Below are positions 2,550 to 2,613 of a stretch of DNA of 4,057 nucleotides, piece by piece (the first letter of the stretch is position 1; each line of letters begins with the position of its first letter). The notes under the pieces were generated by a model. The model did not search any database. It saw only the letters and a program-made list of their open reading frames with translations, and was not told where the DNA came from. The position numbers were made by a program, and so were the translations under genes. The DNA is from Escherichia coli (GTDB lineage Bacteria; Pseudomonadota; Gammaproteobacteria; Enterobacterales; Enterobacteriaceae). The DNA lies in the NCBI RefSeq assembly GCF_003334305.1, contig NZ_QOWS01000051.1; one strand, written 5' to 3'.

Positions 2550-2573
2550 AAAAAATCAGCATCACGTGATGCT
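2550..2573 (-). terminator. Putative rho-independent terminator of the Rhs-toxin/immunity operon: 16-bp perfect palindrome AGCATCACGTGATGCT followed on the minus strand by GA then TTTTTT
   Basis: Palindrome at 2558-2573, 40 bp downstream of the immunity stop (2614-2616). On the minus strand a T6 run follows (plus A-run 2550-2555); on the plus strand TTTT follows as well, so it may act in both directions. The stem is short (6-8 bp, about half GC). Confidence 0.35.
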
Positions 2574-2613
2574 TTTCCTGCTATTAATAACCTCCTCTAT
2601 TTAACTATATTTT

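What the first reader, a model, noticed from the sequence alone, without database searches (positions are those of the whole stretch)
2550..2577. Perfect 16-bp palindrome with T-runs on both sides
AGCATCACGTGATGCT (2558-2573) is a perfect palindrome centred on CACGTG, followed on the plus strand by TTT and on the minus strand by GA plus TTTTTT. The simplest reading is a bidirectional terminator insulating the toxin-immunity operon from the IS; a perfect palindrome could alternatively be a dimeric regulator binding site.
Basis: seen in the sequence. Interest (0 to 1): 0.3.

Follow-up and report, generated by a model that had tools for sequence, protein, structure and literature searches.

The report
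Relic insertion-sequence end, not an insulator
The perfect 16-bp palindrome is real, but it is a mutated leftover of the terminal inverted repeat of a dead H-repeat (ISEc1/ISAs1-family) insertion sequence next to an Rhs toxin-immunity pair; at best it is a weak one-way terminator, so it is ordinary.

Summary
AGCATCACGTGATGCT at 2558-2573 is a perfect palindrome with the stated flanks. It is only mildly unusual: 6.6% of dinucleotide shuffles of the window contain one.

It is not a spacer element between the operon and the IS. About 25 H-rpt/ISEc1 copies in different flanks share homology up to ...CCCTG, which is window 2580. The palindrome therefore occupies nt 8-23 of the IS left end. Every other copy reads AGCGTTACGTGAT-CTT there, which is not a palindrome. 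The A6/T6 run is an invariant IS feature.

The palindromic allele occurs once per genome, at one chromosomal locus, in 1025 of 5426 E. coli genomes. In 894 of them it sits in an isolated 78-bp diverged IS-end remnant, beside a full H-rpt that has its own consensus tip. The window is a derived form with a 252-bp deletion.

On the coding (minus) strand the hairpin is weak: 6 bp, -6.5 kcal/mol, then GA and U6. The plus strand has only U4. This gives a marginal unidirectional terminator at most, and "bidirectional" is unsupported.

Verdict: a known IS end with a chance or relic palindrome. Low interest.

The parts
2558..2573 (.). Perfect 16-bp palindrome AGCATCACGTGATGCT. It occupies nt 8-23 counted from the IS tip at 2580 and is a mutated version of the family sequence AGCGTTACGTGAT-CTT.
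   Evidence: sequence, only palindrome of 12 bp or more. (about 25 other copies carry the non-palindromic consensus).
2550..2555 (-). A6 on the plus strand, T6 on the minus strand. This is a sub-terminal run that is invariant in all H-rpt left ends. It doubles as the U-tract after the hairpin in this allele only.
   Evidence: invariant columns; all copies. (flagged as terminator-like only where the palindrome is present).
2574..2580 (-). Degenerate IS tip TTTTCCTG (minus strand 5'-CAGGAAAA). The family tip is CTTTCCCTG (5'-CAGGGAAAG). An inserted G at 2571 destroys the GATC of the consensus tip.
2535..2580 (-). Part of the window that derives from the 78-bp diverged IS-left-end remnant seen in BL21-type genomes. 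The 14-bp direct repeat GCGAATTATTTAGT (2535-2548) is the crossover point of a 252-bp deletion.
   Evidence: BL21, CFSAN061772; two left ends 252 bp apart.
1289..2580 (-). H-rpt / ISEc1-type (ISAs1 family) insertion sequence, 1292 bp. Its left end is a hybrid (consensus body plus remnant tip).
   Evidence: homology boundaries in different flanks. (NF033564 ISAs1 transposase, E 2.4e-94). (annotation as ISEc1/ISAs1). (96.4% identity to the ydcC copy).
1289..1312 (+). Right terminal inverted repeat CAGGGCAAGATTACGAAAGCCCGC.
   Evidence: homology starts here in 4 of 6 copies. Comparison with the consensus left end CAGGGAAAGATCACGTAACGCTGC gives 18 of 24 matches by direct reading; one search gives a gapped version.
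1299..2435 (-). ISAs1-family transposase pseudogene, with an in-frame TGA at 2256-2258 (Q60* relative to ydcC).
2442..2461 (-). Conserved 7-bp hairpin that pairs the transposase Shine-Dalgarno AAGGAG with CTCCTT. This is the IS's own likely device against read-through expression.
   Evidence: -8.0 kcal/mol. (invariant).
2614..3006 (-). Putative immunity gene (130 aa, lipoprotein-like N-terminus). Its stop codon is 40 nt upstream of the hairpin on the minus strand. In E. coli it is always linked to the palindromic remnant.
2984..3943 (-). C-terminal part of an Rhs core protein with a variable toxin tip (weak YkuD-like hit).

Best explanation
The palindrome is a fossil. It is the inner part of the left terminal inverted repeat (IRL) of an old, diverged H-repeat insertion sequence (H-rpt/ISEc1, ISAs1 family) that landed just downstream of this Rhs toxin-immunity cassette.

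What is shown:
- In working relatives this stretch lies at the IS end. The role of that end is inference: in DDE insertion sequences generally, the terminal repeat is the site the transposase binds before cutting at the CAGGG tip.
- In this one orthologous copy the sequence has drifted from AGCGTTACGTGAT-CTT to AGCATCACGTGATGCT, by two transitions and one inserted G.
- The drift happens to complete a pre-existing quasi-palindrome, and it destroys the conserved GATC and the CAGGG tip.
- In most carriers the relic is an isolated 78-bp stub beside a later, intact-ended H-rpt.
- In the window a 252-bp deletion between the two left-end repeats has fused the stub to the neighbouring IS body. The palindrome now looks like that IS's end.
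- The adjacent T6 run is a family-wide IS feature.

What is inferred:
- The relic no longer serves transposition.
- In RNA read from the Rhs-immunity operon (minus strand) it can form a 6-bp hairpin followed by GA-U6, so it may cause some pausing or partial termination. I rate the chance of substantial termination at about 0.3.
- There is no meaningful terminator activity in the plus direction.
For: 1. IS membership. Homology among H-rpt copies lying in at least 20 different flanks stops at CCCTG, which is window 2580. Genome-wide BLAST matches from other copies end at window 2580-2584. The right end begins at 1289, giving 1292 bp.
2. The other copies all read AGCGTTACGTGAT|CTTTCCCTG. The palindromic allele is found only at this locus.
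3. It occurs at one place per genome, always on the chromosome, in 1025 of 5426 genomes, and 986 of those are identical over 40 nt.
4. The BL21-type structure has a full IS with a consensus tip, then a 175-bp segment, then the 78-bp remnant with the palindrome. That junction is present in 894 genomes.
5. The remnant is only about 79% identical to the consensus left end along its whole length. The changes in the palindrome are therefore in line with general decay.
6. The transposase gene carries a premature stop.
7. Weak hairpin: -6.5 kcal/mol, negative terminator discriminant. Consensus ends have no hairpin abutting the T-run.
8. No Rfam family matches.
Against: - The minus-strand structure does satisfy a simple terminator pattern. 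With the A4/U6 extension it folds better than all 200 shuffles. A real, if modest, terminator role acquired secondarily cannot be excluded.
- All three changes inside the 16 bp improve the symmetry. This could hint at selection, or at template-switch 'correction', rather than pure drift.
- No open-access text giving the published H-rpt end sequences could be retrieved. The IR assignment therefore rests on my own comparisons.
- No target-site duplication flanks the element.
Confidence: 0.85

Rival explanations
1. Exapted unidirectional intrinsic terminator. The relic IS end now ends the Rhs toxin-immunity transcript (minus strand) through the 6-bp hairpin plus U6, and the palindrome was perfected or retained for that reason.
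For: The simple scan lists it on the minus strand in both the window and BL21. It lies 40 nt after the immunity stop codon. An A4 tract upstream pairs with the U-tract, giving a 51-nt fold of -14.4 kcal/mol with z -4.0. Consensus IS ends lack this hairpin. All three internal changes increase pairing.
Against: The stem is only 6 bp with 3 G-C pairs, at -6.5 kcal/mol. A 2-nt spacer precedes the U-run. The d-score is -50, against +3 to +30 for the trpA, lambda tR2 and T7 terminators (formula recalled from d'Aubenton-Carafa 1990). The window holds 5 terminator-like sites against 3.2 expected by chance. The 96% invariance among carriers is no more than the general identity of the locus, so it gives no signal of selection. 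The IS already has its own SD-sequestering hairpin.
Confidence: 0.3
2. Bidirectional terminator insulating the operon and the IS from each other.
For: The hairpin is symmetric with T-rich flanks on both strands. The plus-strand 51-nt fold is -11.1 kcal/mol with z -2.7.
Against: The plus-strand tail is UUUUCC, only 4 U, and the scan does not list it. Its d-score is -26. No plus-strand genes converge on the site. The element lies inside the IS end rather than between the units.
Confidence: 0.05
3. Operator for a dimeric DNA-binding regulator, or a still-functional binding site for the ISAs1 transposase.
For: There is perfect dyad symmetry. The position in an IS terminal repeat is where a transposase binds in DDE insertion sequences generally (established knowledge).
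Against: It is a single site per genome. No regulator gene lies in the window. The allele departs from the sequence conserved in all other copies exactly in the tip (CAGGA instead of CAGGG, GATC lost). The local transposase is a pseudogene. In most genomes the site is an orphan stub with no partner end.
Confidence: 0.04
4. The origin is not simple drift. Instead a quasi-palindrome 'correction' occurred by intramolecular template switching during replication (the mechanism described by Ripley and by Lovett), which converts imperfect inverted repeats to perfect ones in one step.
For: The consensus is a quasi-palindrome. The two left-arm transitions (GTTAC to ATCAC) make that arm the exact complement of the unchanged right arm GTGAT. 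The inserted G makes the right arm complement the unchanged AGC.
Against: The changes lie in both arms, so one switch event cannot explain them. The remnant is about 21% diverged throughout, so 3 changes in 16 bp is unremarkable. No intermediate alleles were found.
Confidence: 0.15

Closest known systems
H-repeat (H-rpt) / ISEc1, ISAs1-family insertion sequences associated with E. coli Rhs elements (Hill laboratory, 1990s; ISfinder ISEc1, about 1291 bp, from my own knowledge). PMC3032704 notes that H-rpt sits by Rhs C-terminal tips and that transposition has not been observed.
   Same: The transposase family matches (NF033564). The length is 1292 bp, which is 1291 plus 1. The tip is of the CAGGG type. 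The location is immediately downstream of an Rhs toxin/immunity cassette. The sub-terminal sequence, including the T6 run, is shared with all copies.
   Different: This copy's left tip is a locus-specific degenerate allele (palindromic, GATC lost, CAGGA). It is inherited from a 78-bp remnant and fused to the IS body by a 252-bp deletion. The transposase is a pseudogene.
Rho-independent (intrinsic) terminators.
   Same: A stem-loop is followed within 2 nt by U6 on the coding strand, there is an A-tract upstream, and it lies 40 nt after a stop codon.
   Different: The stem is much shorter and weaker than in typical E. coli terminators. The U-tract pre-dates the hairpin and belongs to the IS. The plus-strand side is poor.
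Read-through protection devices at IS ends (IS10/IS50-type sequestration of the transposase ribosome-binding site; established knowledge).
   Same: The H-rpt left end has a conserved SD-sequestering hairpin at 2442-2461. A hairpin plus U-run at the very end would act in the same direction.
   Different: The palindrome is absent from all other family members, so it is not part of the family's design.

Membership tests
Terminal inverted repeat of an ISAs1-family IS (H-rpt/ISEc1) | It lies at the point where similarity among copies inserted at different sites ends. | tested here: met
   Homology in more than 20 different flanks ends at ...CCCTG, which is window 2580. The palindrome is 7 nt inside that point.
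Terminal inverted repeat of an ISAs1-family IS (H-rpt/ISEc1) | It is adjacent to an ISAs1-family DDE transposase gene, at the transposase-proximal end. | tested here: met
   (NF033564, E 2.4e-94). The transposase start codon at 2435 is 145 nt from the tip.
Terminal inverted repeat of an ISAs1-family IS (H-rpt/ISEc1) | It is inversely complementary to the other end of the element. | tested here: met
   The consensus left end matches the right end (1289-1312) at 18 of 24 positions ungapped. The window allele matches at 12 of the first 16 with one gap (and direct reading).
Terminal inverted repeat of an ISAs1-family IS (H-rpt/ISEc1) | The family tip is 5'-CAGGG (ISfinder family description, from memory). 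| tested here: not met
   The window allele reads CAGGA, whereas all other copies read CAGGG. This is consistent with a degenerate relic.
Terminal inverted repeat of an ISAs1-family IS (H-rpt/ISEc1) | A direct target-site duplication of 8-10 bp flanks the element. | tested here: not met
   The flanks are ...CCTCCTACC|IS|CTATTAATAA, with no duplication. This is expected for a hybrid made by deletion or recombination.
Terminal inverted repeat of an ISAs1-family IS (H-rpt/ISEc1) | It is bound and cleaved by the cognate transposase. | not testable with these tools
   This needs EMSA or in vitro cleavage. The literature states that no transposition of H-rpt has been observed (PMC3032704).
Intrinsic (Rho-independent) terminator | A G+C-rich stem of at least 5 bp with a 3-8 nt loop. 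| tested here: met
   6 bp, 3 G-C pairs, 4-nt loop. It only just meets the threshold.
Intrinsic (Rho-independent) terminator | A U-tract of at least 5 in 8, starting within 2 nt of the stem. | tested here: inconclusive
   Met on the minus strand (GA+U6). Not met on the plus strand (UUUUCCUG has 4 in 8 and is not listed).
Intrinsic (Rho-independent) terminator | Hairpin stability and combined score fall in the range of known terminators. | tested here: not met
   -6.5 kcal/mol against -13.4 to -22.3 for reference hairpins. The d-score is -50 (minus) and -26 (plus), against +3 to +30.
Intrinsic (Rho-independent) terminator | Transcript 3' ends map to the U-tract. | not testable with these tools
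   This needs Term-seq or 3'-RACE in a strain that carries the locus.
Operator of a dimeric transcription factor | Dyad symmetry, plus a cognate regulator or recurrence at other promoters. | tested here: inconclusive
   The symmetry is met. No regulator gene is in the window. The 40-mer occurs once per genome. Recurrence of the bare 16-mer elsewhere in a genome could not be searched.

The most novel reading that the evidence does not exclude
A dead IS end was converted into a perfect palindrome by template-switch (quasi-palindrome correction). It was then retained because, together with the IS's own T-run, it terminates the Rhs toxin-immunity transcript. That would be a documented case of an IS terminal repeat exapted as a terminator and travelling with a toxin-immunity cassette.
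Probability: 0.08. Interest if true: 0.3.

Novelty: already known. Interest (0 to 1): 0.08.

Why it matters
It matters little. The result corrects the map of this locus in three ways:
- The IS boundary is at 2580, not upstream of the palindrome.
- The palindrome and its T-run belong to an H-rpt end.
- The window's IS is a hybrid made by a 252-bp deletion.

For annotation, symmetric sequences next to IS elements should be checked against the IS's terminal repeats before being called terminators or operators. If the hairpin did terminate transcription, it would be a small example of IS debris supplying regulatory signals to an Rhs cassette.

Tried and rejected
- An Rfam scan of the whole window at E<=1 found nothing near the site, only a chance CrcZ hit at 2744-2806.
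- The 'RtT sRNA' annotation under one BLAST hit (H19) was checked. It merely abuts another H-rpt end in a rearranged genome and is irrelevant.
- Literature searches for the published H-rpt/ISEc1 end sequences found no open text that gives them. The 1993 J. Bacteriol. paper could not be retrieved by PubMed id.
- A plasmid-collection search for relatives of the 78-bp remnant returned only mislabelled E. coli chromosomes, or noisy copies of the same locus. No intermediate allele and no intact IS with a palindromic tip turned up.
- A junction-spanning 47-nt query did not discriminate the deletion form from consensus copies. It was replaced by the BL21-junction query.
- The longest inverted repeat in the window (1130-1153 against 2535-2558, 20 of 24) was considered as a possible second IS end. 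I judged it to be chance: it lies in a coding frame, and one such pair is expected among all pairs in 4 kb.
- Similarity to known E. coli operator types (CRP/FNR, LacI family) was considered from memory and rejected. The half-site arrangement does not fit.

Full report
**Observation**

Window 2558-2573 reads AGCATCACGTGATGCT. This is a perfect palindrome centred on CACGTG. It is the only perfect palindrome of 12 bp or more in the window. A perfect 16-bp palindrome appears in 198 of 3000 dinucleotide-preserving shuffles, or 6.6%.

**Context**

All genes in the window are on the minus strand. In order they are:
- The C-terminal part of an Rhs core protein with a variable toxin tip, 3943..2984. 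It matches RHS_core at 2e-91 and has a weak YkuD-like hit.
- A 130-aa putative immunity gene, 3006..2614.
- An ISAs1-family transposase gene, 2435..1299. It matches NF033564 at 2.4e-94 and has an in-frame TGA at 2256-2258 (Q60*).
- Degenerate orphan ORFs, followed by the start of another Rhs gene.

The best-matching genome (strain 120899) shows vgrG-rhs-immunity-ISAs1 in the same order.

**Where the IS ends**

A 265-nt query across the site hits 5329 of 5426 complete E. coli genomes, with a median of 5 places per genome. For copies outside this locus the match covers only query positions 1-145, which is window 2436-2580. I aligned six copies that lie in unrelated flanks: ybfD, ydcC, and loci in O157, an ETEC strain and ATCC 25922. 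I also collected about 25 left ends from Escherichia species and Pseudocitrobacter with a pattern scan of 100,044 species genomes. In all of them similarity stops immediately after ...CTTTCCCTG, which corresponds to window 2580.

At the other side, similarity begins at CAGGGCAAGATTACG, which is window 1289. The element is therefore 1289-2580, or 1292 bp. From my own knowledge, the H-rpt/ISEc1 element of Rhs loci is about 1291 bp. The two ends are imperfect inverted repeats: the consensus left end CAGGGAAAGATCACGTAACGCTGC matches the right end CAGGGCAAGATTACGAAAGCCCGC at 18 of 24 positions.

The palindrome occupies nt 8-23 from the left tip. It lies inside the IS terminal repeat region, not between the IS and the operon.

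**The palindrome is a private allele**

Every other left end recovered reads AAAAAA-NN-AGCGTTACGTGAT-CTTTCCCTG. That sequence has only 4 of 8 palindromic pairs. The window differs in three ways:
- Two transitions in the left arm (GTTAC to ATCAC).
- One inserted G in the right arm (GAT-CTT to GATGCTT).
- Two changes outside the palindrome.

The inserted G destroys the conserved GATC, and the tip reads CAGGA rather than CAGGG. The A6/T6 run is invariant in the whole family.

A 40-nt query specific for the allele finds exactly one chromosomal place in 1025 of 5426 genomes. In 986 of them the match is identical. The 3' end of the immunity gene is never found without the allele in the sampled hits. 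This is one orthologous site inherited with the toxin-immunity cassette, not a transposing variant.

**History of the locus**

BL21 and CFSAN061772 have a different layout. Reading outward from the transposase gene, it runs as follows:
1. A full H-rpt left end with a consensus tip (...AATCAGCGTTACGTGATCTTTCCCTG).
2. A 175-bp segment that again ends in GTGATCTTTCCCTG.
3. A 78-bp stretch that is only about 79% identical to the family left end and carries the palindrome.
4. The immunity gene.

The junction between the 175-bp segment and the remnant is present in 894 genomes. This is the majority form and presumably the older one. In it the palindrome sits in an orphan IS-end stub.

The window, together with strain 120899, H240 and at most about 130-157 genomes, lacks exactly 252 bp. 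The deleted stretch lies between the two direct copies of GCGAATTATTTAGT (window 2535-2548), so the stub is now fused to the neighbouring IS body. Because the whole stub is diverged, three changes in 16 bp is unexceptional.

**Terminator test**

On the minus strand the RNA forms AGCAUC-ACGU-GAUGCU, a 6-bp stem with 3 G-C pairs at -6.5 kcal/mol, followed by GA and U6. With the upstream A4 pairing to the U-tract, the 51-nt fold is -14.4 kcal/mol with z -4.0. The simple scan lists it on the minus strand only. The window as a whole holds 5 terminator-like sites against 3.2 expected. BL21 gives the same minus-strand hit.

On the plus strand the tail is UUUUCC, and the 51-nt fold is -11.1 kcal/mol with z -2.7.

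I also computed a d'Aubenton-Carafa-type discriminant, with the formula taken from memory, so it is only a rough guide. It gives -50 for the minus strand and -26 for the plus strand. The trpA, lambda tR2 and T7 terminators give +30, +17.5 and +3.

Consensus H-rpt ends form no hairpin next to the T-run and are not flagged by the scan. A marginal unidirectional terminator is therefore physically possible. A bidirectional one is not supported, and there is nothing on the plus strand to terminate.

The IS family carries its own conserved hairpin, which pairs the transposase Shine-Dalgarno with CTCCTT (2442-2461, -8.0 kcal/mol). That is the more likely device against read-through.

**Other readings**

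- No Rfam family matches the site.
- A regulator operator has nothing in its favour beyond symmetry. There is one site per genome and no regulator gene nearby.
- A functional transposase site is unlikely, because the tip is degenerate and the stub has no partner end in most genomes.
- Template-switch 'correction' of a quasi-palindrome could explain why all internal changes improve symmetry. However, the changes are in both arms, and no intermediates were found.

**Conclusion**

The feature is the decayed left terminal repeat of a known insertion sequence (H-rpt/ISEc1, ISAs1 family), long known to accompany Rhs C-terminal tips (PMC3032704). Its perfect symmetry is most simply a by-product of drift from a quasi-palindromic ancestor. 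It may add weak termination after the immunity gene, but this is untested. Novelty: already known. Interest: low.

Noticed in passing
window 2442-2461 (minus strand): CTCCTTA-CATAAT-TAAGGAG is a 7-bp hairpin (-8.0 kcal/mol) that pairs the transposase Shine-Dalgarno with an upstream complement. A -10-like CATAAT sits in the loop. It is invariant in all H-rpt copies aligned. It looks like IS10/IS50-style protection against translation of read-through transcripts.
   Followed up: partly
L008 6786-6960 (absent from the window); also L028 1993-2175 and L029 2004-2112: A 110-175-bp segment is present in 2564 E. coli genomes. It sits directly outside H-rpt left ends at three or more different loci and always ends in the same 14-nt IS tip, GTGATCTTTCCCTG. 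It could be a tandem or alternative left end, or a MITE-like derivative of H-rpt.
   Followed up: partly
window 2535-2548 against L008 6737-6750 and 6989-7002: The window carries a 252-bp deletion relative to the majority (BL21-type) form. The deletion lies between two direct copies of GCGAATTATTTAGT, one in the full IS end and one in the remnant end. The BL21-type junction is present in 894 of the 1025 carriers.
   Followed up: yes
window 2256-2258: The ISAs1 transposase has an in-frame TGA (Q60* relative to the intact ydcC copy) plus 10 amino-acid substitutions, so it is a pseudogene here. In strain 120899 the same gene is also split by an ISEc47 insertion.
   Followed up: yes
window 2561-2580 against the consensus: The consensus H-rpt left tip contains a GATC (Dam) site, in GTGATCTTTCCCTG. 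The right end has GATT instead. The palindromic allele has lost the site through the inserted G. A Dam site in only one end recalls IS10/IS50 regulation.
   Followed up: no
L027 about 329-385 (strain DETEC-P61): An IS1 element is inserted at the right edge of the palindrome (GTGATG|GGTAATG...), removing the IS tip and the immunity-gene flank in that strain.
   Followed up: no
window 2984-3943 and 2614-3006 (minus strand): The Rhs C-terminal tip has a weak YkuD (L,D-transpeptidase) Pfam hit (E 3e-4, residues 200-300). The downstream 130-aa protein has a lipoprotein-like N-terminus (LILVIGC). Together these suggest a periplasm-acting, cell-wall-targeting toxin with a periplasmic immunity protein.
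   Followed up: partly
window 357-1296 (minus strand): Downstream of the IS lies a degenerate orphan module. ORF 1296..817 stops at a TAG, and the reading frame appears to continue beyond it. Short ORFs at 697..596 and 551..357 follow, the latter annotated as DUF3969 in strain 120899. The PAAR-like N-terminus of another Rhs gene then starts at about 290 and runs off the window.
   Followed up: no
window 1130-1153 against 2535-2558: This is the longest inverted repeat in the window (20 of 24 complementary). It pairs the IS sub-terminal sequence with a stretch inside the orphan ORF, 137 bp outside the IS right end. It is probably chance, but it was not excluded as another IS-end scar.
   Followed up: partly
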